DNA from: Minisyncoccia bacterium
GTDB taxonomy: Bacteria > Patescibacteriota > Minisyncoccia > JACQLN01
DNA: 64,000 nucleotides
Direction of reading: 5' to 3'
NCBI GenBank assembly: GCA_049274895.1
Contig: JBASTM010000011.1
Span: forward strand, 2,011 to 66,010
Positions within the stretch are counted from its first letter, which is position 1. Each line of letters opens with the position of its first letter. This document shows, piece after piece, positions 4,547 to 62,942 of this stretch. Both the position numbers and the translations under genes were made by a program. The notes beneath the pieces are model-generated. The model was not told the origin of the DNA and did not search any database. It worked only from the letters and a program-made list of their open reading frames with translations.

Positions 4547-4834
4547 TTAATCCGAAAAAGGATTATTTTTGCCGGTGGTCTCGGTTTTTAGGGGCAGGCC
4601 CGGCGGGGGCAGCAGATCTCTAAAACGCTCGTCTTCCAAAATTTTTACCTTGAGATCGGAGATTTGATTGTTGCTGGCCGTTGTTGGGTTCGCCGGCGGC
4701 AAGGCGGTGCTGGGCAGGGCGCTTTTCTTAAAAATACCAAAATAGACAATAGCCGCGCTGGTTAAAACCAGCACAATAAACACTGTTAAAAACAACCGCT
4801 TACGTTTGATTTCTTTGGTAGCTACGACAGGCAT
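4547..4834 (-). CDS. Small Pro-rich membrane-anchored protein (possible PilP-like pilus assembly component)
   Basis: 95 aa with an N-terminal TM helix. It is embedded in the pilMNO-pilB gene string. A leader-A element sits directly upstream. Confidence 0.4.
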   Translation of the reverse strand: MPVVATKEIKRKRLFLTVFIVLVLTSAAIVYFGIFKKSALPSTALPPANPTTASNNQISDLKVKILEDERFRDLLPPPGLPLKTETTGKNNPFSD

Positions 4835-4920
4835 GCTTTTACGAAATACGAATACTTACGAATTTACGAATGGGATTGGAATTTTATTAGTATATTCGTA
4901 TCCATTCGTAATTCGTAAAT
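4835..4920 (-). promoter_or_regulatory. Leader-A element (4x ATTCGTA array forming a long imperfect palindrome) upstream of the 4834 gene
   Basis: Minus strand reads ...cattcgtaaattcgtaagtattcgtatttcgtaaaag-ATG. Confidence 0.65.
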
Positions 4921-5520
4921 CTACTTTTTAAGTACATACGTTTTCATACTAACACTGTAATCAATGATCGGGTCCACATCGACAACCAATTCGCCTTCGG
5001 ATGTTTTCTTTTGGGCCACCGCAAAAGAAATCTTGGTAACATCCAGCAGACGCAAACTTTTTTCCACCGCGCCCAGCCAATTCTTAAAAGAGCCGTAATT
5101 GCCGGAGGCGCTAACTCCCACCGTCAAGGTTTTTATCATTTCTTTGCTGGCGGCAACAACAGCTCGCGAATTGGGAGTCCGGGCGCTGGTATCCTCCGGA
5201 GCTGACTCCACAATAACCCTCACCAAATTCAAACCGTTTTGAGCCGCCAGATTTTCCATAATACTGATCATCTCCGGCTTAAACTCTAAAGATGGCACCG
5301 CCTGCTCCAACCTTTCCACGTTGCTTTTTTGTGAATCCAAAACCTGATTGACGGCATTGAGCTTGTCTATAACCTGGCGTTCCAATTCTATGGATTTTTT
5401 CTTTAAGGCCGCCTCTTGCCTTAGCGCCGCCACACCCGACCAGCTGGGGAGTACCACCAGCCAGACCAGCGCCACCAAGCCGGCCGCCACTAAAATATTT
5501 ATGATGAACTTGCTCGACAT
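4921..5520 (-). CDS. pilO: PilO-like pilus assembly protein
   Basis: 199 aa with an N-terminal TM helix and a coiled coil. It lies immediately downstream of the pilN-like gene. Confidence 0.55.
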   Translation of the reverse strand: MSSKFIINILVAAGLVALVWLVVLPSWSGVAALRQEAALKKKSIELERQVIDKLNAVNQVLDSQKSNVERLEQAVPSLEFKPEMISIMENLAAQNGLNLVRVIVESAPEDTSARTPNSRAVVAASKEMIKTLTVGVSASGNYGSFKNWLGAVEKSLRLLDVTKISFAVAQKKTSEGELVVDVDPIIDYSVSMKTYVLKK

Positions 5521-11280: not shown

Positions 11281-11285
11281 GAATC

Positions 11286-11313
11286 AGCTTTTAGCTTTTA
11301 GCTTTTAGCTTCT
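11286..11313. repeat. (AGCTTTT)x4 heptamer tandem repeat in the rpsL-rpsG intercistronic region. It is flanked by inverted TAGCTT/AAGCTA copies.
   Basis: Direct reading: cagcttttagcttttagcttttagcttcttagg, then aagctaataagctaggaagcta. Confidence 0.8.
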
Positions 11314-11355
11314 TAGGATTTTACTAAAAAGCTAATAAGCTAGGAAGCTAATTTT

Positions 11356-13046: not shown

Positions 13047-13086
13047 CATTCGTATATTCGTATAAATTCGTATTTCGTAAAGATAT
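13047..13086 (+). promoter_or_regulatory. Leader-A element upstream of rpmB
   Basis: Reads cattcgtatattcgtataaattcgtatttcgtaaagatat-ATG. Confidence 0.65.
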
Positions 13087-15269: not shown

Positions 15270-15312
15270 TAATAAATATTTACGAAGTACGAATAATTAC
15301 GAATTTACGAAT
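15270..15312 (-). promoter_or_regulatory. Leader-A element upstream of the DUF378 gene
   Basis: Minus strand reads aattcgtaaattcgtaattattcgtacttcgtaaatatttatta-ATG. Confidence 0.65.
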
Positions 15313-15384
15313 TAAATAATAAGTCCCGTGAATTCGCAAAGATCGCCGACGCTATTAAATGATAATAGCTTTATTATACCACAA

Positions 15385-16891: not shown

Positions 16892-18265
16892 CTACTTCTT
16901 CAATATCGCATCTATTTGGGCCTGGATGGCTTTGATTTGATCCGCTATCTGCTGGGCCTGACTAGGCGCTGCTGATGACGGTGCGGCCGGAGCCACATAT
17001 GAAGGAGTTGGCGGGGCTATGGGAGCGCTGACCGAAGAACTGCCCAAAATTTCATTAATCTTTTGCAATGTAGCCGGCCCAACTCTACCCACTGCAGGCA
17101 GACCATACTTGGCTTGGAATTTCTTTACCGCGGCTGTGGTCTTGGGACCGTAGAAGCCGCTCACAGTGCCTTCGGGGTAAATGGTTGGATCTTGGGCTAA
17201 GAGCTTTTGCAAGTCCATAACTTCATCATTTCTAGCACCAGGATTAAGTTCAGAATCTATAGAAACTGATCCGGAAACCACCGGCGCAACCTGTGCGGCC
17301 GAGCCGGATGTGATGCTTTGAATTTGTTGCTGGATAGCTTGAATTTGAGATTGGATTTGATTGGCAGTTCTAGCTTGAACCGACGTTGACGGCGCTGGAG
17401 TTGATATGACTTCGGCTTTAGAACCAAAAACATCATTCAACTTAGCCAATGTAGCCGGCCCAACTCTACCCACTGCGGGCAAACCATACTTGGCTTGGAA
17501 TTTCTTTACCGCGGCCGTGGTCTTGGGACCGTAGAAGCCGCTCACAGTGCCTTCGGGATAAATGGTCGGGTCTTGGGACAAAAGCTCCTGCAGTTTCATA
17601 ACCTCGTCATTACGAGCACCGGGATTAATTTCCTTAGTTAGAACTGGCGCCATACTCACAGATACTGGAGCTGATACGACTGGTGCAACCACGGGGGCCG
17701 TAACAGCTGGAGTTGCTGGTCCAACTGTAGTTGCAGTTGTGGTAGTTGTAGTTTTTGGAGTAGCAGTTGTTGATGTAGTAGTAGTTGTAGTCGTGGTAGG
17801 AGAAGCCGAAGAAGTTGAAGATAATGTACTGGTGGTTGATGATGAACTGCTACTGCTAGAGGAAGACCCGCCTCCGCCGGAAGTGGTAGTACAAGTTGAG
17901 CTACCCGGGGCCACATTCACCGTTTCAGAGGAACCGGACGGCAGAGACACGGAAAGCACCGACGAAGAACTGCCGCATTCCAAACTAAACACGGTCTTGT
18001 CACCCCTATAAGTAAAATTCTTTTTATCGGCAGAAGTTAAATTGATGGTTGACCCTGACGCCAAGGTTATATCCATGTCCGCAGCATTCACAACCAATGT
18101 CTCTACCTTACCATTGGTAACGGTTAAATCTATAGTGTTGCCGCCAACGGTAACACTTAGGGTACCCCCACTAGAAATAACCACATCATCAAAAGCCGCA
18201 GAAACAACCAGAGGCAGTACTAACCCCAACAACACCCCGACCCTCAAAATGTTTTTAAGTTTCAT
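16892..18265 (-). CDS. Secreted protein with two peptidoglycan-binding (PG_binding_1-like) domains and a Ser/Thr-rich linker
   Basis: 457 aa with a signal peptide. A roughly 65-aa module ...PGARNDEVM.LQ.LL.QDPTIYPEGTVSGFYGPKTTAAVKKFQAKYGLPAVGRVGPATL... is duplicated. An S/T low-complexity block is present. Confidence 0.7.
   Translation of the reverse strand: MKLKNILRVGVLLGLVLPLVVSAAFDDVVISSGGTLSVTVGGNTIDLTVTNGKVETLVVNAADMDITLASGSTINLTSADKKNFTYRGDKTVFSLECGSSSSVLSVSLPSGSSETVNVAPGSSTCTTTSGGGGSSSSSSSSSSTTSTLSSTSSASPTTTTTTTTSTTATPKTTTTTTATTVGPATPAVTAPVVAPVVSAPVSVSMAPVLTKEINPGARNDEVMKLQELLSQDPTIYPEGTVSGFYGPKTTAAVKKFQAKYGLPAVGRVGPATLAKLNDVFGSKAEVISTPAPSTSVQARTANQIQSQIQAIQQQIQSITSGSAAQVAPVVSGSVSIDSELNPGARNDEVMDLQKLLAQDPTIYPEGTVSGFYGPKTTAAVKKFQAKYGLPAVGRVGPATLQKINEILGSSSVSAPIAPPTPSYVAPAAPSSAAPSQAQQIADQIKAIQAQIDAILKK
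17041..17260. repeat. Intragenic direct repeat, copy 1 (about 90% identical to 17421-17640)
   Basis: Near-identical roughly 200-nt DNA blocks encode the duplicated PG-binding module. Confidence 0.8.
17421..17640. repeat. Intragenic direct repeat, copy 2
   Basis: See copy 1. Confidence 0.8.
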
Positions 18266-42555: not shown

Positions 42556-43909
42556 TAAACTTCCCTATTCTCAAACCGGAAGATCCGTCGAACTTATAAG
42601 CCTGTTCGCGAAGAAAACGCTCTCTGCCGTCTTTGTCTATTTGAGGATTATTTAGATATAAATTAATGTTTTTTACCAATTCATCTTGGTTTTCGGCTAC
42701 TCTGCAACAATTTGTCTTTAACATTTTTTTAACATGATCGTAATATTTAACAAAACGACCAACACTCGAAAGATCGTCTTTTTTTTCGAAGCCGTCGAAA
42801 GAAACGCAAACTACAGGTTTATCAAAACAAACCGCGTCAATAATTAAGCTGGAAGCGTAAACCACAACCAAATCGCTATGAAACAAAGAATCGGCCAACT
42901 TAATGGTTTCTTTGTTCGTAACTTCCTTGTCGGAAAAACTGCCTTCTTTAAAAGAAACACCCGTTTCGTAAATAAAAAAACGCTTCGAAGGAAGGAAGTA
43001 ATCCAATTCCACTTTGTCGTTGGGAGGCAATCTCACTAAAAATCTTACATCGTCGGGCAAAGAACCTTCGTTTGACTTATTTTTAAGTATTTCCAAAATT
43101 TGCCAATCGGTTTCAATAAAACGTTTACCCAAGGGCCCTAAAAAAACAAGCCGACAAGACGGATCAAAGCCTATATTTTTAAAAAAATCCAGCCTGGAAA
43201 TTCGAGGTTCGTTAAAATAATAATCTAATTGAGGCATTCCGCCGACGAATATATTGCCGCTTTTCATCCCCTGATACTTAACGACTTCCGATTTTATCGT
43301 TTCGTTGTGAACAATAAGCTTGTCGGGAGTAAAACGAAACAAACCCTTGTTGGTTATGTTATCCCATGATCTAACCATTCCTACAACAGTAATTCCACTT
43401 TTTTTCGCTTCGGCCAACAAATTTATGTCGCTGTTGTGAAAAATATCGGTGCAAAAAACAAGATCGGGTTCATACTTTTCAAAAAAAGGTTTAAAAAAAA
43501 CGCTGTTTATGGAAATATGGTCTAAAAACCTGGCCAGAGACTTAACGCCCGGAATTTTGCTGGCAAAATAAGCCAAAAATCTGGAGAGGATATAAGCAAA
43601 AAAATCTTTATCTTGAGACAACTTTCGTTTTTGATGTAAAAATCTTGTTTTGGTGTTTAAAAGCGATCCCGACAGATACCTAAAAATAATTCCTTGTTTG
43701 CGTACGGGCAAATCTTTTATTCCTTCTATTAAAACATTCTCGCTCGCGAAATTTTTAACAAAATAATCTTTCTTGTAATCCGGGCAAAAAATAACTATCC
43801 GGCAATCGGCCGTTTTTTTTATTGCTTCTAAAACATCAGATTCCAGTATGTTTCTGGAAATAAATGGATTAAAACTGGTTATAAATATTGTTCGCATAAT
43901 ATTGAGCAA
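42533..43909 (-). CDS. CDP-glycerol glycerophosphotransferase-like (TagB/TagF family), paralog 2
   Basis: 458 aa with GMVRSWDNIT...GGMPQLDYYF. Confidence 0.55.
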   Translation of the reverse strand: MLNIMRTIFITSFNPFISRNILESDVLEAIKKTADCRIVIFCPDYKKDYFVKNFASENVLIEGIKDLPVRKQGIIFRYLSGSLLNTKTRFLHQKRKLSQDKDFFAYILSRFLAYFASKIPGVKSLARFLDHISINSVFFKPFFEKYEPDLVFCTDIFHNSDINLLAEAKKSGITVVGMVRSWDNITNKGLFRFTPDKLIVHNETIKSEVVKYQGMKSGNIFVGGMPQLDYYFNEPRISRLDFFKNIGFDPSCRLVFLGPLGKRFIETDWQILEILKNKSNEGSLPDDVRFLVRLPPNDKVELDYFLPSKRFFIYETGVSFKEGSFSDKEVTNKETIKLADSLFHSDLVVVYASSLIIDAVCFDKPVVCVSFDGFEKKDDLSSVGRFVKYYDHVKKMLKTNCCRVAENQDELVKNINLYLNNPQIDKDGRERFLREQAYKFDGSSGLRIGKFIVSMLPK

Positions 43910-44966
43910 CTTTATTCCAACTCATCGACTTAGCAAAATCGATCGAAGCTCTAGACAATTTTTCTTTAAGACCAATATCGCCAATTATGGATAAAATAGC
44001 TTCAGCTGCTTTTTTTCCATCATTAGTTGGAACCAAAAATCCGTTTATTCCGTTTTTCACCGCGTCTTCGGCACTTGTATTCAAAGTTGCTATAATAGGC
44101 AGACCATAAACAGCAGCTTCCAGAAACACCAAACCAAAACCTTCAATATCTTTACCGTCGTCTTGAGGCAATAAAATAAACAACTCGGCGGCGTGATATA
44201 ACGCAATTAAAAAGTCTTCTTCGACCTTGTCAAAAAAAACCACCTTGTTTTCAATTTTGAGATTTGACATTTGATATTTAAGATTATCCTTTTCCGGTCC
44301 TTTACCCACAATGACGTATTTTAATTCGGGAAATTGTTTGGATATTCGGGCGAAAGTTTCAATCGAATACTCGTACCCTTTTCTTTTTTTTAACGTTCCC
44401 ACGCTTAAAATATACGGCTTTAAATCGGTAATTTGCTTGCCCTCCGTAACTTTACCGCGTCCTTCCGAAGTCTTGGACGAAGTAGGAGCGAAGGAGGAAA
44501 ATTTTTCAAAATCCACCCCATGATTTATAACCTCGATTTTTAAGTTGGGAATGATTTTTAAAATTTCTTTTTTGGTGTTATTACTTATAGCCACAACCTT
44601 GTCGGCTTTTTTGTAGGCCCAAATCATGAGGGTTTTTTTAAAAAAGCGGTACAGCGGCTGAACCGCTCCCGTGCCTATCGCCGTAATAACTATTTTTTTT
44701 CTAAGGCCAACAGAAAAAGCGGTAGCTATGAATCCGTAAGGCCAGCCGTCTAAGGCGTGAATAACTTCGCTTTGGCTGAAAATTCCGCGTATTTTAAAAA
44801 AATTAAAAAGTAAGGATACAAATCCTCCGGAAAGAATGTCCATCGAGGTTAAAATTTTAAATTCCCAATCGGGGTTTTCCTTCTTTAAGGCTCGCGAAAA
44901 AGACAACCAAAAACTGCCGGAGCCGGTATTTGGTTTTAGATTGTGGTTAAGGAAGCATATTTTCAT
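43869..44966 (-). CDS. GT4 (GT1-fold) glycosyltransferase
   Basis: 365 aa with EGFGLVFLEAAVYGLPIIAT. Confidence 0.8.
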   Translation of the reverse strand: MKICFLNHNLKPNTGSGSFWLSFSRALKKENPDWEFKILTSMDILSGGFVSLLFNFFKIRGIFSQSEVIHALDGWPYGFIATAFSVGLRKKIVITAIGTGAVQPLYRFFKKTLMIWAYKKADKVVAISNNTKKEILKIIPNLKIEVINHGVDFEKFSSFAPTSSKTSEGRGKVTEGKQITDLKPYILSVGTLKKRKGYEYSIETFARISKQFPELKYVIVGKGPEKDNLKYQMSNLKIENKVVFFDKVEEDFLIALYHAAELFILLPQDDGKDIEGFGLVFLEAAVYGLPIIATLNTSAEDAVKNGINGFLVPTNDGKKAAEAILSIIGDIGLKEKLSRASIDFAKSMSWNKVAQYYANNIYNQF

Positions 44967-58047: not shown

Positions 58048-58929
58048 TTAGATAAGCTCCTTGTAGTGTTTCTTGTACCAGCTTACCGTCCGTTTCATTC
58101 CCGCCTCCAATGGGGTAAACTTAAACTTGCCGATCCACTTATACAATGTACTCGTATCTCCTTGTATGACTGCCTTTGAAGTCTCACCAGCTCTCATTGG
58201 TAAGAATTCAATCTTAGCTTTAAGTATATCTGCTATTAATTTTGCAACCTTGATCAACGGCTCGCCCTTACCACTACCGGAATCGATAACTTCTGTGGCT
58301 ACTTTATCCAATTCTAAAGCACGAACTAAAATCTCAGCTGTATCACCGGCGTAAACCAAGTCCACCAACTGACTGCCATCGCCGTAAACCTGAAGCGGTT
58401 GGCCTTGCAAAGCCCTGATTATAAAACTGGGCGCGAATTTGCGAACAGGCTTGAACTTCTGACCTTCTCCATACACATTAAAACCTCTGACAACATTTAT
58501 ATGCGTGCCAAATTCTCGGTTATATAAAAAGGCAAAATCTTTGGCCGTCCTCTTAGTTATAGCATAAGGATTATGCCAAACATCGGGCAAGGTTATGTAA
58601 ACGCATTTTTTGCCGTATTTTTTAACCGCTTCGAAAACGTTCAATGTTCCTAAAATATTGACTTCGTTGGTTTCGATAATATGTTGAAGTGTTTCGGCTG
58701 TACCTAAAATCCCAGCCAGATGTATTACCCCATCACATTCAAAAACAGCTTGATCCACGGCATTTTTGTCGCGAATATCGGCCACAAAATTTTGAACCCC
58801 TGGTGCTGATTTAATAACCTTGCGATCGAAACTCACCACTTGGCAACCACGATCTAATAATTTTTGTATAACATGGCTACCGATAAAACCTTGGCCTCCC
58901 GTCACTAAAACTTTTTTTAAATTACTCAT
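58048..58929 (-). CDS. NAD-dependent nucleotide-sugar epimerase/dehydratase (SDR family)
   Basis: 293 aa with VLVTGGQGFIGSHV and YxxxK. Confidence 0.8.
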   Translation of the reverse strand: MSNLKKVLVTGGQGFIGSHVIQKLLDRGCQVVSFDRKVIKSAPGVQNFVADIRDKNAVDQAVFECDGVIHLAGILGTAETLQHIIETNEVNILGTLNVFEAVKKYGKKCVYITLPDVWHNPYAITKRTAKDFAFLYNREFGTHINVVRGFNVYGEGQKFKPVRKFAPSFIIRALQGQPLQVYGDGSQLVDLVYAGDTAEILVRALELDKVATEVIDSGSGKGEPLIKVAKLIADILKAKIEFLPMRAGETSKAVIQGDTSTLYKWIGKFKFTPLEAGMKRTVSWYKKHYKELI

Positions 58930-60052
58930 AATTTTTTTGAGTTAAAGCGTTTGTGAGCGCTTGATAATATAACTTTAAATAAACCTCTTTGGTAATAAAA
59001 CCAACCGCCATGGCTAGCGATTGTTTTTTAAATATTGCCAGTTTACCCGCATCAGAAGCCAATTCTATCAATTTATCGGCCAATTGTCTATAATCTCCAA
59101 CCAGGACCACAAAACCATTTTTGCCGTTTATGATGGTTTCGCCGGCTGGGGCGACATCGGTCATCACGACCGGCAAACCCGAAGCCATAGCCTCCGCCGG
59201 CGAACGCGCCCCGCCTTCGTAATTAGAAGTTAATAAAAACAAGTCAGCTGTCCTGTAATAGGATATTATGTCATCCGACCAGTTTTCCATGACAACATCC
59301 TCTTGTAATTTGAGGCCTAAGATCTGTGACTTAATATTTGTGTGTTCGGGACCAGAGCCGACAATAAGTAAAAGGGCTTGAGGGCATACCTTAACCACCT
59401 CGGCCATCGCTCTAATTGCCAAACCAATATTTTTTTCTCTGGCTAACCGGGTAGCCATAAGAATTATAAATCTGTCCGGGTATTTTCTGCGCAAGTCAAT
59501 CTTGACCGCACCGGTTTTAAATCTCTCCATATCGTAAACTATAGGCAAAACTGTAATCTTGGAGCTTAGGACTTGAAGTTCGAAGCACAAAGAATCCTTG
59601 ATGCGTTCCGAAACCACACGAAGCCCATCAGCCTTTTTAACCAACCACTTACCTAAAACGACTTTGATTTTGTTCCTTACGGACTCTTGTTGAAAATACA
59701 GACTCAAAAAATCTGTGTGGACCTGGAGTTGTAAGGGTAAATTAAACTTTTTCTTTAGTAAGTAAGCAATTAGACCAAGTTCAAACGGGTCCTGTGAGGT
59801 AATTACCAACCGGGAAATTGAAACACGGGGGAATTGAGAAATTAATTTAGCACCGGTTCTAAAGATTTTTATATAACCATTGGCCGGGTAAATAAAAACG
59901 TTTCCAAAATTTTGATTTTTGGTCTTTGATTTTTGGTTTTTAACAATAATATGTAGTTCCTCCACCAGCTTTCCGTAATCTCTCATCCTCTGCCGAACTT
60001 CCGATCCCTCAATAAATATATTCTCGTCGGTTGATAGCATTAAGACTTTCAT
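58922..60052 (-). CDS. GT4 glycosyltransferase
   Basis: 376 aa with YEGGARSPAEAMASGLPVVMT. Confidence 0.8.
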   Translation of the reverse strand: MKVLMLSTDENIFIEGSEVRQRMRDYGKLVEELHIIVKNQKSKTKNQNFGNVFIYPANGYIKIFRTGAKLISQFPRVSISRLVITSQDPFELGLIAYLLKKKFNLPLQLQVHTDFLSLYFQQESVRNKIKVVLGKWLVKKADGLRVVSERIKDSLCFELQVLSSKITVLPIVYDMERFKTGAVKIDLRRKYPDRFIILMATRLAREKNIGLAIRAMAEVVKVCPQALLLIVGSGPEHTNIKSQILGLKLQEDVVMENWSDDIISYYRTADLFLLTSNYEGGARSPAEAMASGLPVVMTDVAPAGETIINGKNGFVVLVGDYRQLADKLIELASDAGKLAIFKKQSLAMAVGFITKEVYLKLYYQALTNALTQKNYE

Positions 60053-60702
60053 TATTTTTCCAAAACAAAAAACAACCTGTAACCGTCCAAGACCGGCCTG
60101 ATGATTTTAATCTTCTTAAAATGACTTTTAAGTATCTTTTTAACCTTACCTAATCGCCAGTTATAACCGTCTATTTCCCAATAATGTTGCCCTGATATTT
60201 TTATGCCGCCGAATTTTAACGGTATCCTTAGAAACAAACTTAAAAGATTACTCCTTAAAAAAGTCCTGATGCCGGGAAACTTAAAAATAATTTCCCAACC
60301 GGTGGAACGGTACGGCAAAGAGATAACGGCGTATCGGGAACTGACACGCTTGATCTCCAAAAGATCTTTCTCAAACTCACCGAAAGGCAAGTGCTCCAGA
60401 ACCTCAAAAGCGGTTACCACCCGAAAGGAATCGGCCCCGAAAGGCAACTCTCTTATATCAGCCACATGGTCGGGGTTGAGTTTAGGGTCAAAATCGCAGG
60501 TAACCACGCTAAAACCGGCCGTTTTTAAGCAATTAGAGGCCATCCCCGAACCCACACCCACCTCCAAAATGCCGTCTTTGGCCTTGTCTTTAACCAACTG
60601 CGAGACTAAGTCTATTTGATAAAAATACGAAATAAACCGTTCCAAGGTGTTGTACTTGGGCTTAAAATAATGCTCTTTGTTTTTTTGGGGTTTTAATTCC
60701 AT
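60052..60702 (-). CDS. Class I SAM methyltransferase
   Basis: 216 aa with ILEVGVGSGMAS. Confidence 0.7.
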   Translation of the reverse strand: MELKPQKNKEHYFKPKYNTLERFISYFYQIDLVSQLVKDKAKDGILEVGVGSGMASNCLKTAGFSVVTCDFDPKLNPDHVADIRELPFGADSFRVVTAFEVLEHLPFGEFEKDLLEIKRVSSRYAVISLPYRSTGWEIIFKFPGIRTFLRSNLLSLFLRIPLKFGGIKISGQHYWEIDGYNWRLGKVKKILKSHFKKIKIIRPVLDGYRLFFVLEK

Positions 60703-62942
60703 TTTTGAATCAAATTTACCAGCTCTCGAATCGTGTTTTCTATAGAGAATTTTTGAGCTTTGGTTTTGGCTTTTTCAGAAATACTCTCTCTAAAATTTTT
60801 ATCTTTACCCAGCTTATCTATGGCATCCAAAAATTGTTTTTTATCGTTCGGCTCCACCAATATGCCATCCACTCCGTTTTCTATAATCTCCGAAAGATTG
60901 CCGATATTGGTGGCAATAACCGGCAAACCCACACTCATCGCTTCTACTATTTGAAATGAAAAACTTTCAAAGTGGGTGTTAAGAACGAATACCTCGGCTT
61001 CTTGTAATTTCCGCATGAGTTCTTCTCTTGGAATCTGACCCAAAAGTTCCACCCGATCTTGTAATTTGAGATTTGAGATTTGAGATTTGAGATTGGTATG
61101 CTCCGGTCCATCTCCGGCGATAACTAATTTCCACTCCGGCAAGTCCCGCATCAATTCTACCAAAAAACCAAAACCCTTCCACGGCACCAATCTCCCAGCC
61201 GATATGATAACTTTTGGTTTAGAGTGAGTAGCTGGTAGTGAGTAGCTGGTAGTCAAGTCTATACCATTATAGATAACCTTAATCTTGTTGGGATTTCTGA
61301 CCCATTTTGAAACCAACTGTCGAAAATACTTACTGGGCGTAATTACTATATTGGCTTGATCCACCACAAACCTTTGAACCCAACGCAAAAACTCCACTTT
61401 CCAGCCGTATTGTTTGTTTTGAAAATCGTCTATGGAATCTTTGACTCCGAAACGCTGGGTTGATTGCTCCCAAACGTAATCGCCCGGTACTCTTATTATA
61501 AACTTTTTCCGGCATAATTTGGCGGCGAGAAGCGACGGCAAGCCGACGCTGATGGTGTCTTGGGCTAAAACCCAATCGTGCCCGGGGCACAACCGTAACG
61601 ATTTTATAAAATAAAAAAAATGGCGCAGCCCTTTCGGCCAGTTTCTGACGGCCCGAAACGGCAACACGGTTACGCTAATACCGCATTGAGGCAGCTCTCG
61701 CTCCAATAAAGCGGCGTAAGTGGCCGGACCGCCGACCTCCGGCGGATAAATGCCGGTGGCGAGCAATAGTTTTTTAGTGAGTAGTGAGTAGTGAGTAGTG
61801 AGTAAACCGAAAATTTTATTCATTTTATGGGCTATCGGATTCCAAGAATATTTTTCTTTAACCAGCTTCTGGCCATTCTCGGATAACCGGCGGGACAGCT
61901 CGGGATTGTTTGCTATTCTTGTTATCTTTTCGGCTAAATCTTTGGGATCATCAACTCGGCAAAATAGTCCATTGTCATCATCTTTAAGAAAGTCGGGAAT
62001 GCCCCCAACCGAAGTTCCGATGACCGGAAGGCCGGCTGCCATAGCTTCCAAAAATGAATTGCCCAAACCCTCCGAACGCGAGGGACGTACAAAAACATCG
62101 GCTTGGGATAAATACTCTGGAATCAAATCGGGATCAACCTGGCCGACGAATTTGACCCTGTCGGCAACATCCAAATCTTTGGCCAGTTTTTCCAACTTTA
62201 ATCTATCCGGACCATCGCCAACGATAATAGTTTGTAGTTGGTAGTTGGTAGTTGGTAGTAAAGAAATGGCGCGGATGAGAGTATCAATCCCATTTTTATA
62301 AACCAACCGCGAAGTGGTAATGATTGTATAAGTCTTATCAGACTTATGGGTCTTATTGGTCTTATATGAATCTAAATTAACCCCGTTGGGTACAACCTCC
62401 ATGGGGCAGGTTGCCCCATGCCTACGGGCAAAATCGGCAAGGTACCCGCTAATGGCCTGGATGTGATCAGCATTCTTAAATATCAGCCGCCATAATGGGT
62501 AAAATACGCCTACTCGCTTGAGTATATGCTGTTCCGAATCGCCTTCCTGCAAGGTCAAAAGCGTTGGAACCTTTGGATGCAAAAATTTGAAAAATAACCC
62601 CGCCAGACCGGCATAAGCGGCCATAACGGACCAAACAATCTGATAGTTATTTTGACGGTGAAGTTTTCTAGCTAACAACACGGCCTTTAAGGGGTATGTT
62701 AATTTGGTTCCACTGACTCTGTAGACATTCACCTTACCCATGACCTCCTTGACTTCATGACTTCTACTGAATTGCAGAGATATTAGATCGAAATTAAAAT
62801 CACCGCTCAAGCGGCTGGTAATCTCTTTAACGGCTATCTCGGCGCCCCCGACCATAGGAAAATAGGCCAGAGAAAAAATCAAAACCCGCGGCTTCTGATG
62901 GGTCATAACATTAAAACCATCGGCGCGCGGGTTAAATAACAT
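60693..62942 (-). CDS. Double GT4 glycosyltransferase (two complete GT4 modules fused) containing four heptanucleotide repeat tracts
   Basis: 749 aa. The EX7E-type motifs are SRSEGLGNSFLEAMAAGLPVIGT and HFESFSFQIVEAMSVGLPVIAT. Confidence 0.8.
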   Translation of the reverse strand: MLFNPRADGFNVMTHQKPRVLIFSLAYFPMVGGAEIAVKEITSRLSGDFNFDLISLQFSRSHEVKEVMGKVNVYRVSGTKLTYPLKAVLLARKLHRQNNYQIVWSVMAAYAGLAGLFFKFLHPKVPTLLTLQEGDSEQHILKRVGVFYPLWRLIFKNADHIQAISGYLADFARRHGATCPMEVVPNGVNLDSYKTNKTHKSDKTYTIITTSRLVYKNGIDTLIRAISLLPTTNYQLQTIIVGDGPDRLKLEKLAKDLDVADRVKFVGQVDPDLIPEYLSQADVFVRPSRSEGLGNSFLEAMAAGLPVIGTSVGGIPDFLKDDDNGLFCRVDDPKDLAEKITRIANNPELSRRLSENGQKLVKEKYSWNPIAHKMNKIFGLLTTHYSLLTKKLLLATGIYPPEVGGPATYAALLERELPQCGISVTVLPFRAVRNWPKGLRHFFYFIKSLRLCPGHDWVLAQDTISVGLPSLLAAKLCRKKFIIRVPGDYVWEQSTQRFGVKDSIDDFQNKQYGWKVEFLRWVQRFVVDQANIVITPSKYFRQLVSKWVRNPNKIKVIYNGIDLTTSYSLPATHSKPKVIISAGRLVPWKGFGFLVELMRDLPEWKLVIAGDGPEHTNLKSQISNLKLQDRVELLGQIPREELMRKLQEAEVFVLNTHFESFSFQIVEAMSVGLPVIATNIGNLSEIIENGVDGILVEPNDKKQFLDAIDKLGKDKNFRESISEKAKTKAQKFSIENTIRELVNLIQKWN
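61064..61094. repeat. (ATTTGAG)x4 heptamer tandem repeat inside the double-GT4 CDS
   Basis: Reads atttgagatttgagatttgagatttgagatt and encodes NLKSQISNLK. Confidence 0.85.
61224..61251. repeat. (GTGAGTAGCTGGTA)x2, which is two heptamer pairs, inside the double-GT4 CDS
   Basis: Reads gtgagtagctggtagtgagtagctggta. Confidence 0.85.
61777..61804. repeat. (GTGAGTA)x4 heptamer tandem repeat inside the double-GT4 CDS (inter-module linker)
   Basis: Reads gtgagtagtgagtagtgagtagtgagta and encodes LLTTHYSLL. Confidence 0.85.
62234..62259. repeat. (GTAGTTG)x3.7 heptamer tandem repeat inside the double-GT4 CDS
   Basis: Reads gtagttggtagttggtagttggtagt and encodes LPTTNYQLQT. Confidence 0.85.

What the first reader, a model, noticed from the sequence alone, without database searches (positions are those of the whole stretch)
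60693..62942. Four heptanucleotide x4 tandem repeat tracts inside one double-GT4 gene, a slipped-strand phase-variation candidate
Seen in sequence: (ATTTGAG)x4 at 61064, (GTGAGTAGCTGGTA)x2 at 61224, (GTGAGTA)x4 at 61777 and (GTAGTTG)x3.7 at 62234 all lie within one CDS. Each tract is about 28 nt of perfect 7-nt periodicity and maps to inter-domain or linker positions of the two GT4 modules. Gain or loss of one unit frameshifts the gene, while three units restore the frame. Established: short tandem repeats with unit length not divisible by 3 drive phase variation of surface glycosyltransferases in several host-associated bacteria. Heptamers are rare and four independent tracts in one gene is striking. 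A fifth heptamer array (AGCTTTT)x4 sits between rpsL and rpsG.
Basis: partly seen in the sequence, partly recalled or inferred. Interest (0 to 1): 0.65.

Follow-up and report, generated by a model that had tools for sequence, protein, structure and literature searches.

The report
Heptamer DNA repeats inside glycosyltransferase genes
A sugar-transferase gene of an uncultivated groundwater-type bacterium (Patescibacteria) carries four real ~30-base repeats of 7-base units; such repeats recur at the same spots of related GT4 genes across the lineage, but they behave as stable fixed-length DNA repeats, with no sign of rapid on/off switching.

Summary
ORF 60693..62942 (-) is a fused two-module GT4 glycosyltransferase with four ~30-nt period-7 or 14 tracts (none in 300 simulations).

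The tracts belong to a lineage-wide pattern. In 1.5 Mb from 80 orthologous Patescibacteria loci plus the window, period 7 dominates. 54 of 62 heptamer arrays lie in GT4-like genes (27.5% of the DNA), and 1 lies in any other gene. They cluster at four fixed fold positions, are ~4.3-4.9 units long, and are encoded by 7-nt-periodic DNA. Units are uniform within an array but differ between lineages.

The hallmarks of phase variation are absent:
- The 93%-identical relative L081 shows no copy-number difference at the three tracts it covers.
- About 40 tract comparisons within >=90%-identity clusters show none either.
- None of ~75 arrays sits at a frameshift.
- Known phase-variable heptamer tracts vary from 1 to 38 copies.

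Best reading: these are slippage-born, frame-filtered microsatellites that evolve in concert at permissive GT4 sites. Tract J bridges a gene fusion. Three things remain unexplained: the restriction to GT4 genes, the G-poor units, and the replacement of helix-coding sequence without length change.

The "fifth array" between rpsL and rpsG is one arm of an RNA hairpin, a different kind of object.

The parts
60693..62942 (-). Fused two-module GT4 glycosyltransferase gene, 749 aa. Module 1 is about 61794-62942 and module 2 about 60693-61772.
   Evidence: ORF. Pfam matches Glycos_transf_1 (8.9e-90) and Glyco_transf_4 twice each. AlphaFold model with mean pLDDT 86.7 shows two GT-B modules. In 32 of 80 orthologous loci the two modules are separate adjacent genes, and in 33 they are fused.
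62228..62259 (-). Tract B. Sense strand (ACCAACT) x4.6 at 96% match, perfect over 62234-62259. Peptide LPTTNYQLQT, residues 228-239, covering the loop and first half of the strand before the GDGP motif of module 1.
   Evidence: TRF, profile mapping to m2 positions 211-220, structure. Orthologues carry heptamer arrays at the same site with units AATTACC, AAGTTCC and AAATTGT.
61775..61804 (-). Tract J. Sense strand (ACTCACT) x4.3, perfect. Peptide LLTTHYSLLT, residues 380-390, forming the linker between module 1 and module 2. It occupies the position of the former stop, spacer and start.
   Evidence: TRF. pLDDT ~64. A +1-unit or -2-unit change gives a stop directly after the tract (391 or 384 aa), and a TTG sits at codon 393. 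Split orthologues have a 3-72-nt spacer here. L001 has a 7.6-unit array at this site.
61223..61253 (-). Tract L. Sense strand (ACCAGCT ACTCACT) x2.2, a 14-mer made of two heptamers. Peptide TTSYSLPATHS, residues 564-574, in the loop between the N and C domains of module 2.
   Evidence: TRF. pLDDT <50 at residues 570-573. One half equals the tract-J unit and the other is one mismatch from the tract-B unit. In L081 both copies read ACCAACT instead of ACCAGCT, a concerted difference.
61064..61094 (-). Tract H. Sense strand (AATCTCA) x4.4, perfect. Peptide NLKSQISNLK, residues 617-627, in the ordered helix after the GDGP motif of module 2.
   Evidence: TRF. Helix 615-624 with pLDDT 90-94. This is the commonest array site in the lineage, with about 27 arrays at m2 positions 229-243. 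The same unit and register occur in L074, a 35%-identity orthologue. In alignment A1 all but two orthologues (P0018, P0039) have the same length here.
59910..59941 (-). Partly decayed heptamer/14-mer array (TTTTGGT-type, x4.6 at 80%; 14-mer x2.2 at 94%) in the adjacent single-module GT4 gene 58922..60052. Peptide KNQKSKTKNQ.
   Evidence: TRF, Pfam GT4, lag-7 DNA identity 0.78.
44256..44285 (-). Partly decayed (TCTCAAA) x4.3 array at 82% match, at the site-H position of GT4 gene 43869..44966. Peptide NLKYQMSNLK. It has the same unit as tract H.
   Evidence: TRF, Pfam GT4, lag-7 DNA identity 0.83.
62332..62365 (-). A 9-nt repeat (GTCTTATCG x3.8 at 80%) at the N/C-domain linker of module 1. Peptide KTNKTHKSDKTYT. 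By eye it contains the inverted repeat TAAGTCT/AGACTTA. It is a second kind of short insert at the same class of site.
   Evidence: TRF, sequence, alignment A1 columns 245-285, which vary in length.

Best explanation
The four tracts are short heptanucleotide microsatellites of about 30 nt (4.3-4.6 units, 10-11 codons), embedded in frame in a fused two-module GT4 gene. They are members of a lineage-wide population of such arrays in Patescibacteria GT4 genes.

Proposed mechanism, with each step marked as shown or inferred:
1. Origin by replication slippage, with the bias towards 7-nt units already noted for many bacteria. The period-7 excess is shown here. The polymerase cause is a hypothesis from the literature.
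2. Filtering by selection. Only arrays that keep the reading frame, are stop-free in all three sense frames, and translate into a tolerated peptide survive. This confines them to a few permissive positions of the GT-B fold: the inter-module junction, the N/C-domain linker, the loop/strand before GDGP and the amphipathic helix after GDGP. It also holds them near 4.x units, which equals one unit plus three. The positions and lengths are shown. The selective cause is inferred.
3. Maintenance by concerted evolution. Slippage or gene conversion within an array, and some exchange between arrays of one genome, keeps all copies identical while the unit itself drifts by 1-2 nt between lineages. The pattern is shown. 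The process is inferred.
4. Consequences. The tracts are stable on ecological time scales. On evolutionary time scales they give in-frame +-7-aa changes, allele replacement and perhaps rare knock-outs. Tract J supplies the in-frame bridge that fused two formerly separate genes.

On this reading the tracts are not fast ON/OFF switches.
For: Period-7 excess:
- Perfect arrays of >=3 copies in 1.52 Mb number 34 for period 7, against 3 for period 6, 1 for period 8 and about 0 for periods 9-21.
- The window alone has 4, against 0 in 300 simulations.
- Heptameric SSR over-representation in bacteria, a polymerase-slippage hypothesis for it, and a preference for four units in Xanthomonas/Nostoc heptamers are reported in PMC4692102.

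Fixed positions and lengths:
- Arrays cluster at m2 profile positions 2-3, 176-193, 211-221 and 229-243.
- Perfect array lengths are 21-34 nt.
- The structure model places tracts J and L in low-confidence loops and tract H in an amphipathic helix.

DNA-level nature:
- 7-aa-periodic peptides in GT4 genes are encoded by DNA with lag-7 identity >=0.8 in about 29 cases, after masked N-runs are excluded.

Concerted evolution:
- Site-H units AAATCTC, AAATTAC, AAGTTAC, AATTACT and AAGTATC are each uniform within their own array.
- Lag-7 identity at site H is bimodal, about 9% >=0.6 with few intermediates.
- Both copies of the window 14-mer differ from L081 at the same base.
- L001 and L003 share an identical 27-nt array including the same imperfect unit, while their flanks are 59/90 identical.
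- Units are shared between different sites of one genome: d<=1 in 13.4% of pairs against 5.8% between genomes, with 22 of 5000 permutations reaching the observed value.

In-frame quantisation:
- L001 has a 7.6-unit array at site J where other orthologues have about 4.6.

Stability:
- There is no length change between the window and L081 at 3 tracts. The tracts show 5 substitutions in 92 nt, against about 13% divergence for the gene.
- Full-length members of the >=90%-identity clusters show no indel at any array site.
- No frameshift coincides with an array.

Fusion:
- 33 loci are fused and 32 split. A +1-unit change at tract J restores a stop immediately after the tract.
Against: - A pure mutation-plus-filter model does not explain why arrays are almost confined to GT4 genes (54 against 1), when in-frame repeats of period 12, 15 and 18 follow the share of DNA (8:21, 4:17, 1:10).
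- Sense-strand units are strongly G-poor (7.7% G against 25%) and A-rich. Stop avoidance does not account for this.
- At site H the array replaces helix-coding sequence without any change in length. Simple expansion does not predict that.
- No slippage event was observed directly. Concerted evolution in a coding heptamer array needs either frameshifted intermediates or 3-unit steps.
- Shared ancestry makes the 54 arrays non-independent.
- All loci were sampled around GT4 orthologues, so the genome-wide distribution is untested.
Confidence: 0.45

Rival explanations
1. True contingency loci. The tracts are kept by second-order selection because rare slippage switches surface-glycan synthesis off and on. 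A tract-J slip would switch between a bifunctional enzyme and module 1 alone. Several short tracts per gene together give a usable switching rate.
For: - The unit length is not divisible by 3, and the host is a glycosyltransferase gene in a glycan cluster.
- Arrays are strongly specific to GT4 genes, which fits selection better than mutation.
- Perfect arrays persist at the same sites across orthologues of 35-60% identity, and arrays are at least as conserved as their flanks.
- Heptanucleotide phase variation of the Neisseria glycosyltransferase gene pglE is a precedent (PMC7157529).
- Homogenisation of a coding heptamer array is easiest if frameshifted intermediates are tolerated (inference).
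- A +1-unit change at tract J gives a clean stop right after module 1.
Against: - No copy-number polymorphism appears in about 40 close-relative tract comparisons or in window vs L081.
- None of ~75 arrays is in an OFF state.
- The tracts have only about 4 units, whereas documented heptamer phase-variable tracts vary between 1 and 38 units across strains, with several of those listed at 13-38 units, and include frameshifted alleles (PMC2651432).
- Up to six tracts per gene, spread over the whole gene including a structural helix and a strand, is unlike the usual single 5'-proximal tract (the comparison rests on my general knowledge).
- The length polymorphisms that were found are a 21-nt hairpin and a toxin-antitoxin cassette, not heptamer units.
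Confidence: 0.2
2. The arrays are functional or actively 'written' nucleic-acid elements. Possibilities include short identical joints that promote gene conversion or module shuffling among GT4 genes, G-poor unstructured RNA segments acting in cis on transcription or translation, or products of an unknown templated process that deposits ~30-nt heptamer tracts in GT4 genes.
For: - Array length is uniform at about 30 nt whatever the unit.
- Units are shared between different sites of the same genome. The window 14-mer combines the site-J unit with a one-mismatch copy of the site-B unit.
- At site H the array overwrites helix-coding sequence without changing its length.
- Units show a strong strand-specific G depletion.
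- Arrays are specific to GT4 genes.
- A co-occurring allele in L208 carries a different heptamer-type array at the same site with diverged flanks, which is allelic replacement.
Against: - There are 26 different canonical units among 34 perfect arrays, so no single sequence-specific factor fits.
- Mosaic block boundaries between the window and L081 (alignment columns ~90, 1003, 1120) do not coincide with tracts.
- The within-genome sharing signal is modest, and L001 contributes many of the pairs.
- The commonest unit, (AAATCTC)n, occurs in many unrelated contexts in metagenomes, and only 1 of 85 of those arrays is in a GT4 gene.
- No candidate enzyme or template was identified.
Confidence: 0.15
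3. Ordinary protein-level linker or heptad repeats. The peptide repeat is what selection acts on, and the DNA periodicity is incidental.
For: - Tracts J and L lie in flexible linkers.
- Site-H peptides keep a hydrophobic a/d-like pattern (L/Y...I/V) that suits an amphipathic helix.
Against: - The periodicity is 7 nt, not 21 nt. Each array holds only about 1.4 copies of its 7-aa peptide, read from three different frames.
- Orthologues conserve DNA periodicity rather than peptides with divergent codons.
- Chance 7-aa matches elsewhere show only baseline DNA periodicity: 135 segments in other genes.
- About 90% of GT4 domains have non-repetitive sequence of the same length at site H.
Confidence: 0.03

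Closest known systems
Heptanucleotide-repeat phase variation of Neisseria meningitidis pglE (pilin glycosylation glycosyltransferase)
   Same: A tandem 7-nt repeat lies inside the coding sequence of a glycosyltransferase that builds a surface glycan. A change of one unit shifts the frame (PMC7157529).
   Different: pglE is scored ON or OFF among carriage isolates, so its expression state switches (PMC7157529). Here there are four tracts per gene, about 4 units each. No length differences between close relatives and no OFF alleles were found.
Haemophilus influenzae heptanucleotide SSRs (hmw1A/hmw2A promoters, TonB-dependent receptor genes, an hmw1A internal tract)
   Same: These are period-7 simple sequence repeats treated as mediators of phase variation. 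One lies within an ORF (PMC2651432).
   Different: Copy numbers there range from 1 to 38 and differ between strains, and frameshifted alleles are attributed to the tract. Most are upstream of genes. Here the length is fixed at about 30 nt, every tract is in frame, and several occur per gene.
Over-represented heptameric SSRs of bacteria: GGGAATC repeats of Xanthomonas, GGGGA(C/T)T repeats of Nostoc, and the tandem heptanucleotides of Calothrix
   Same: Period 7 is specifically over-represented among longer SSRs, and four units are clearly preferred. Slippage linked to the polymerase footprint has been proposed as the cause (PMC4692102).
   Different: [quoted passage not shown] Here the units are G-poor (7.7% G on the sense strand), lie almost entirely inside coding sequence and are restricted to one gene family.
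Helicobacter pylori fucosyltransferase heptad repeats (from memory, not checked here)
   Same: A repeat inside a glycosyltransferase gives a 7-residue periodicity in the protein.
   Different: As I recall, that repeat has a 21-nt period at the DNA level and is a protein-level repeat in many copies. Here the DNA period is 7 nt and each array holds only about 1.4 copies of its peptide.
In-frame insertion of short repeated elements at permissive sites of proteins, such as Rickettsia palindromic elements (from memory, not checked here)
   Same: Short DNA-level elements are tolerated in frame at surface or linker positions of otherwise conserved proteins. In these GT4 genes, 21-nt GC-rich hairpins occupy the same sites as the heptamer arrays.
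   Different: As I recall, those elements are longer palindromic mobile sequences found in many gene families. The heptamer arrays are tandem, about 30 nt long, have lineage-specific units and are restricted to GT4 genes.

Membership tests
SSR-mediated phase-variable (contingency) locus | Tandem repeat within a coding sequence or promoter, with unit length not divisible by 3 | tested here: met
   Four period-7 or period-14 tracts lie inside ORF 60693..62942. A +-1-unit change truncates the product.
SSR-mediated phase-variable (contingency) locus | Copy-number polymorphism of the tract between closely related strains or populations | tested here: not met
   Window vs L081 (93% nt identity) shows identical length at 3 tracts. 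About 40 tract comparisons among full-length members of >=90%-identity clusters show no indel at any array site. Minority variants below the consensus could not be examined.
SSR-mediated phase-variable (contingency) locus | Occurrence of frameshifted (OFF) alleles attributable to the tract | tested here: not met
   None of ~75 period-7 or period-14 arrays in GT4 genes sits at a truncation. The L067 stop is an in-frame TAA point change. The L205 frameshift lies in a hairpin/A-run segment. P0128 is a scaffold-gap artefact. The cluster 7 split breaks in a conserved motif.
SSR-mediated phase-variable (contingency) locus | Tract long enough for high-frequency slippage | tested here: not met
   The window tracts have 4.3-4.6 units. 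Across the lineage, arrays in GT4 genes have 2.9-5.6 units, with one of 7.6. The H. influenzae heptamer tracts range from 1 to 38 units between strains, and several of those listed have 13-38 (PMC2651432). The threshold itself is not a sharp criterion.
SSR-mediated phase-variable (contingency) locus | Measured reversible switching of expression | not testable with these tools
   This needs read-level data, isolates or a reporter assay.
Over-represented bacterial heptameric SSRs | Specific excess of period 7 over neighbouring periods, in head-to-tail near-perfect copies | tested here: met
   Counts are 34 for period 7, 3 for period 6 and 1 for period 8 in 1.52 Mb. The window has 4 against 0 in 300 simulations.
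Over-represented bacterial heptameric SSRs | Intergenic location and G-rich, quadruplex-capable units, as in the Xanthomonas/Nostoc class | tested here: not met
   55 of 62 arrays are inside genes. Sense-strand G content is 7.7%.
Protein-level heptad or linker repeat | Repeat defined at the peptide level (21-nt period), with codons free to diverge between copies and orthologues | tested here: not met
   The DNA period is 7 nt. Lag-7 DNA identity is >=0.8 in about 29 GT4 peptide segments, while 135 chance 7-aa matches in other genes show baseline lag-7 identity.
GT4 glycosyltransferase (GT-B fold), two modules | N-terminal Glyco_transf_4 domain and C-terminal Glycos_transf_1 domain, present twice | tested here: met
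   Pfam finds two stretches for each family. The AlphaFold model has alternating strand-helix domains in both halves. Orthologues have the same architecture. Donor and acceptor specificity were not determined.

The most novel reading that the evidence does not exclude
Patescibacteria may maintain a previously undescribed, GT4-specific system of fixed-length (~30-nt) heptanucleotide arrays at defined positions of the glycosyltransferase fold. It could be a multi-tract, low-rate contingency mechanism. Alternatively, it could be a concerted gene-conversion or 'writing' process that diversifies or rewires surface-glycan enzymes, including toggling between fused and separate modules at the junction tract. 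Either would be a new mode of programmed variability in ultrasmall episymbiotic bacteria.
Probability: 0.2. Interest if true: 0.8.

Novelty: new variant of a known kind. Interest (0 to 1): 0.6.

Why it matters
Patescibacteria are abundant, mostly uncultivated bacteria. All cultivated members so far live attached to other microbes (abstracts listed), so their surface glycans probably matter for host contact and phage exposure (inference).

Arrays this specific to one enzyme family, at positions conserved across deep divergence, point to one of two things. Either there is an unrecognised route of glycan-enzyme evolution or variation in this group, or the DNA slippage bias interacts strongly and unusually with protein architecture. 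Both can be tested with existing metagenome reads.

The case also carries a caution. A non-triplet repeat in a glycosyltransferase gene is not enough to call phase variation. Here the repeats are stable between close relatives.

No paper in the searched library links heptanucleotide repeats, SSRs or phase variation with this phylum.

Tried and rejected
- Exact look-ups of the window protein, an alternative start and the neighbouring methyltransferase found nothing. Same-strain polymorphism at this locus could therefore not be assessed. The closest DNA available is L081 at 93% identity.
- Four candidate OFF alleles were followed up, and none is a heptamer slippage event:
  - L067 has an in-frame TAA point change.
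  - L205 is frameshifted in a hairpin/A-run segment.
  - P0172 and P0174 break inside the conserved EGLGSSFLEAM motif.
  - P0128 is a scaffold N-gap artefact.
- The split forms in cluster 8 are caused by a 1.4-kb AbiEii cassette, not a tract change.
- The only 7-aa indel between close relatives is a 21-nt GC hairpin.
- Arrays as recombination joints: the divergence blocks between the window and L081 do not begin or end at tracts.
- GT4 specificity as a property of the unit itself: rejected. (AAATCTC)n in metagenomes occurs across GC 0.29-0.65, and only 1 of 85 arrays is in a GT4 gene.
- G depletion as a result of stop-codon avoidance: rejected.
- The comparison of array identity with flank identity is ascertainment-biased and is used only descriptively.
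- The 2007 paper on SSRs in prokaryotic genomes is not held and is cited only through PMC4692102.
- One search failed on term length.
- The paper on SSRs in prokaryotic coding regions (PMC3315296) contains none of the search terms tried, including heptamer, heptanucleotide and glycosyltransferase.

Full report
**1. The observation**

The region was read directly and scanned with Tandem Repeats Finder. All four tracts exist:
- 61064-61094: (ATTTGAG) x4.4, perfect.
- 61223-61253: a perfect 14-mer x2.2, made of two related heptamers.
- 61775-61804: (TAGTGAG) x4.3, perfect.
- 62228-62259: (TAGTTGG) x4.6 at 96%, perfect over 62234-62259.

They lie antisense-up inside one ORF, 60693..62942 on the minus strand, 749 aa. 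Pfam finds two complete GT4 modules in that ORF.

In the whole window, period 7 is the only period from 6 to 15 with three or more perfect copies. There are 4 such arrays, 3 of them in this gene. None appeared in 300 Markov simulations, and the expectation is about 2.5e-4.

**2. The organism and the gene family**

The protein has hundreds of relatives with the same two-module architecture. All sources that give a name call them Patescibacteria, Parcubacteria, Giovannonibacteria and similar. The closest is a partial protein at 88% identity from a Hainich groundwater contig, L081.

Eighty orthologous loci were fetched from species-representative genomes. In 33 of them the two modules are fused, and in 32 they are adjacent separate genes with a 3-72-nt spacer. 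The window gene is therefore a gene fusion, and tract J sits exactly where the stop, spacer and start used to be. A +1-unit or -2-unit change at tract J creates a stop immediately after the tract.

**3. A lineage-wide pattern**

The 80 loci plus the window total 1.52 Mb. Perfect arrays of at least 3 copies number 34 for period 7, against 6 for period 5, 3 for period 6, 1 for period 8 and essentially none for periods 9-21. Array lengths are 21-34 nt, apart from two long intergenic arrays.

With TRF there are 62 period-7 arrays:

| Location | Arrays |
|---|---|
| GT4-like genes (27.5% of the DNA) | 54 |
| Any other gene | 1 |
| Intergenic | 4 |
| ORF edges | 3 |

In-frame repeats of period 12, 15 and 18 split 8:21, 4:17 and 1:10 between GT4-like and other genes, which follows the share of DNA. 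GT4 genes are therefore not simply more tolerant of repeats.

Mapped on a profile of the family, the arrays cluster at a few positions:
- the inter-module junction;
- the N/C-domain linker;
- the loop/strand before GDGP;
- the helix after GDGP, with about 27 arrays;
- some N-domain loops.

Some orthologues carry five or six arrays in one gene. The two partly decayed arrays in neighbouring GT4 genes of the window (59910-59941 and 44256-44285) belong to the same population.

**4. DNA-level, not protein-level**

Each array contains only about 1.4 copies of a 7-residue peptide, read from the three frames of the heptamer. Across all genes of the loci, 7-residue-periodic peptides in GT4 genes are encoded by DNA with lag-7 identity >=0.8 in about 29 cases (masked N-runs excluded), and 0.5-0.8 in 12 more. 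The 135 chance matches in other genes show only baseline DNA periodicity.

At the helix site, about 9% of 295 GT4 domains have strong lag-7 identity. Few are intermediate, and the rest match control windows. No other lag shows this.

**5. Structure**

An AlphaFold model has mean pLDDT 86.7. It places the tracts as follows:

| Tract | Residues | Location | pLDDT |
|---|---|---|---|
| J | 380-390 | inter-module linker | ~64 |
| L | 564-574 | loop between N and C domains | <50 at 570-573 |
| B | 228-239 | loop plus first half of a strand | 86-95 |
| H | 617-627 | ordered helix | 90-94 |

At site H, all but two orthologues in alignment A1 (P0018 and P0039, which carry inserts) have the same length whether or not they carry an array. 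The array therefore replaces helix-coding sequence and does not insert into it. The encoded peptides keep hydrophobic residues at a 4/3 spacing. This fits the fact that three heptamers equal one heptad.

**6. Tests of phase variation**

Literature precedents are real. Phase variation of the glycosyltransferase gene pglE in Neisseria is controlled by a heptanucleotide repeat (PMC7157529). H. influenzae heptanucleotide tracts vary between 1 and 38 copies among strains and include frameshifted alleles (PMC2651432). Those hallmarks were sought here and not found.
- Window vs L081 (93% nt identity) shows no length difference at tracts J, L and H. The tracts carry 5 substitutions in 92 nt, against about 13% divergence for the gene.
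- In ten clusters of orthologues at >=90% identity, about 40 tract-by-relative comparisons show no indel at any array site.
- None of ~75 arrays in GT4 genes sits at a truncation.
- Each candidate broken gene turned out to have another cause: a point nonsense codon, a frameshift in a hairpin/A-run segment, a break in a conserved motif, a scaffold gap and an inserted AbiEii cassette.

The limit of this evidence is that consensus assemblies hide minority variants.

**7. Signs of turnover on long time scales**

- Units at one site differ between lineages by one or two bases, yet are uniform over all copies of an array. At site H the units include AAATCTC, AAATTAC, AAGTTAC, AATTACT and AAGTATC.
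- Both copies of the window 14-mer differ from L081 at the same base.
- L001 and L003 share an identical array, including its one imperfect unit, while their flanks are 66% identical.
- L001 has 7.6 units at site J where other orthologues have about 4.6, a difference of three units that keeps the frame.
- Units are shared between different sites of one genome more often than between genomes. This holds for 13.4% against 5.8% of pairs at <=1 mismatch, and 22 of 5000 permutations reach the observed value. L001 contributes many of the pairs.
- In the window, the tract-L 14-mer combines the tract-J unit with the tract-B unit at one mismatch. In L081 the match to the tract-B unit is exact.

These patterns indicate concerted evolution. 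The process behind it is inferred.

**8. Controls and unexplained points**

A scan of public metagenome contigs for (AAATCTC)>=3.6 returned more than 120 hits. They span GC 0.29-0.65 and copy numbers up to 15, and only 1 of 85 arrays is in a GT4 gene. The GT4 association is therefore a property of this lineage and not of the unit.

Sense-strand units are G-poor (7.7% against 25% in GT4 coding sequence) and A-rich. Stop-free natural heptamers would have 26% G, and 0 of 10,000 resamples reach the observed value.

Four things remain unexplained:
- the restriction to GT4 genes;
- the G depletion;
- the replacement without length change at site H;
- the uniform length of about 30 nt.

PMC4692102 reports that heptameric SSRs are over-represented in many bacteria, that polymerase slippage was proposed as the cause, and that Xanthomonas/Nostoc heptamers prefer four units. 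Those repeats, however, are G-rich, intergenic and under-represented in coding regions.

**9. Verdict**

The tracts are real, non-random, DNA-level heptanucleotide microsatellites. They form part of a lineage-wide, GT4-specific and position-specific population.

The most likely account (confidence 0.45) is slippage-born arrays that are filtered for frame and structural tolerance, kept uniform by concerted evolution, and stable on short time scales. Tract J serves as the bridge of a gene fusion.

True low-rate contingency behaviour (0.2) and a functional or 'written' nucleic-acid element (0.15) are not excluded. Ordinary protein repeats are effectively excluded (0.03).

No paper in the searched library describes such arrays in this phylum. 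I rate the finding a new variant of a known kind, with interest 0.6.

Noticed in passing
window 11281-11355 (minus strand): The rpsL-rpsG spacer consists almost entirely of two complementary short-repeat arrays, (TAGCTTNN) x3 and (AAGCTAA) x4. They fold into one long hairpin (-27.5 kcal/mol, z -4.3, 0 of 200 shuffles fold as well) that ends 5 nt before the rpsG ATG. It may be a regulatory or processing structure of the str operon. It is a different class from the in-gene tracts.
   Followed up: partly
window 4830-4925; also 13048-13079 and 15275-15313: Intergenic arrays of a TACGAA/TTCGTA motif at 7-8-nt spacing. The pair at 4838-4917 forms a long hairpin (z about -5.4 on either strand). The other two are unpaired arrays of the same motif and show no significant fold. 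They may be regulator sites or terminator-like elements.
   Followed up: partly
L203 nt ~2220-2245 vs L202; L206 and L205 at site L: A 21-nt GC-rich hairpin (GCCTGCC-TTGTC-GGCAGGC, peptide LSAGRPV) is present or absent in frame between orthologues of >=90% identity. Related CCTGCC-N5-GGCAGG hairpins sit next to a heptamer array in L206 and L205. A second class of short in-frame insert therefore uses the same GT4 sites.
   Followed up: partly
L209 1800-3170: In a close relative (same >=90% cluster as fused P0050), a 1.4-kb cassette encoding a 201-aa protein and an AbiEii-family protein lies exactly between module 1 and module 2. The two modules are therefore separate genes there.
   Followed up: partly
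L001-L080, junction of the two GT4 modules: The double-GT4 is fused in 33 loci and split into two adjacent genes in 32. Many of the splits have a 12-nt spacer resembling TAGAATAGnnnT before the ATG.
   Followed up: yes
window 60913-61030 and 61933-62030 (A2 columns 1003-1120 and 3-100): Divergence between the window and L081 is mosaic. Blocks of 65-74% identity are flanked by stretches of 95-100% identity, which suggests recombination within the gene.
   Followed up: partly
L067 5517-6371: A GT4 gene has an in-frame TAA inside the conserved ...GRAVI*AMAAGLP... motif, and homology continues in the same frame. It may be a pseudogene, a sequencing error or read-through.
   Followed up: partly
L037 1327-1467: Two abutting long perfect heptamer arrays, (TGCTAGG) x11.1 and (TAGGTAG) x9.7, lie outside any ORF of >=100 aa. 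They are the only long arrays in the 80 loci.
   Followed up: no
L208 ~2490-2640: A scaffold gap (10 N) is followed by a segment from a second, co-occurring allele of module 1. Its site H carries a different heptamer-type array (GCGTATG GCGTATG GCTTAGG GCTTAAG) with diverged flanks.
   Followed up: partly
L082-L161 (metagenome contigs): (AAATCTC) arrays of 4-5 units occur in frame in long ORFs of unrelated contigs across GC 0.29-0.65, including coiled-coil-like contexts such as ...EEISNLKSQISNALQ.... Arrays of 10-15 units sit at contig ends. The host proteins were not identified.
   Followed up: no
window 17726-17799: A period-6/18 repeat (GTAGTTGTAGTTGTAGTA-like, 66-75% match) lies inside the gene 16892..18265 for a protein with two peptidoglycan-binding domains. 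It probably encodes a Ser/Thr-rich linker.
   Followed up: no
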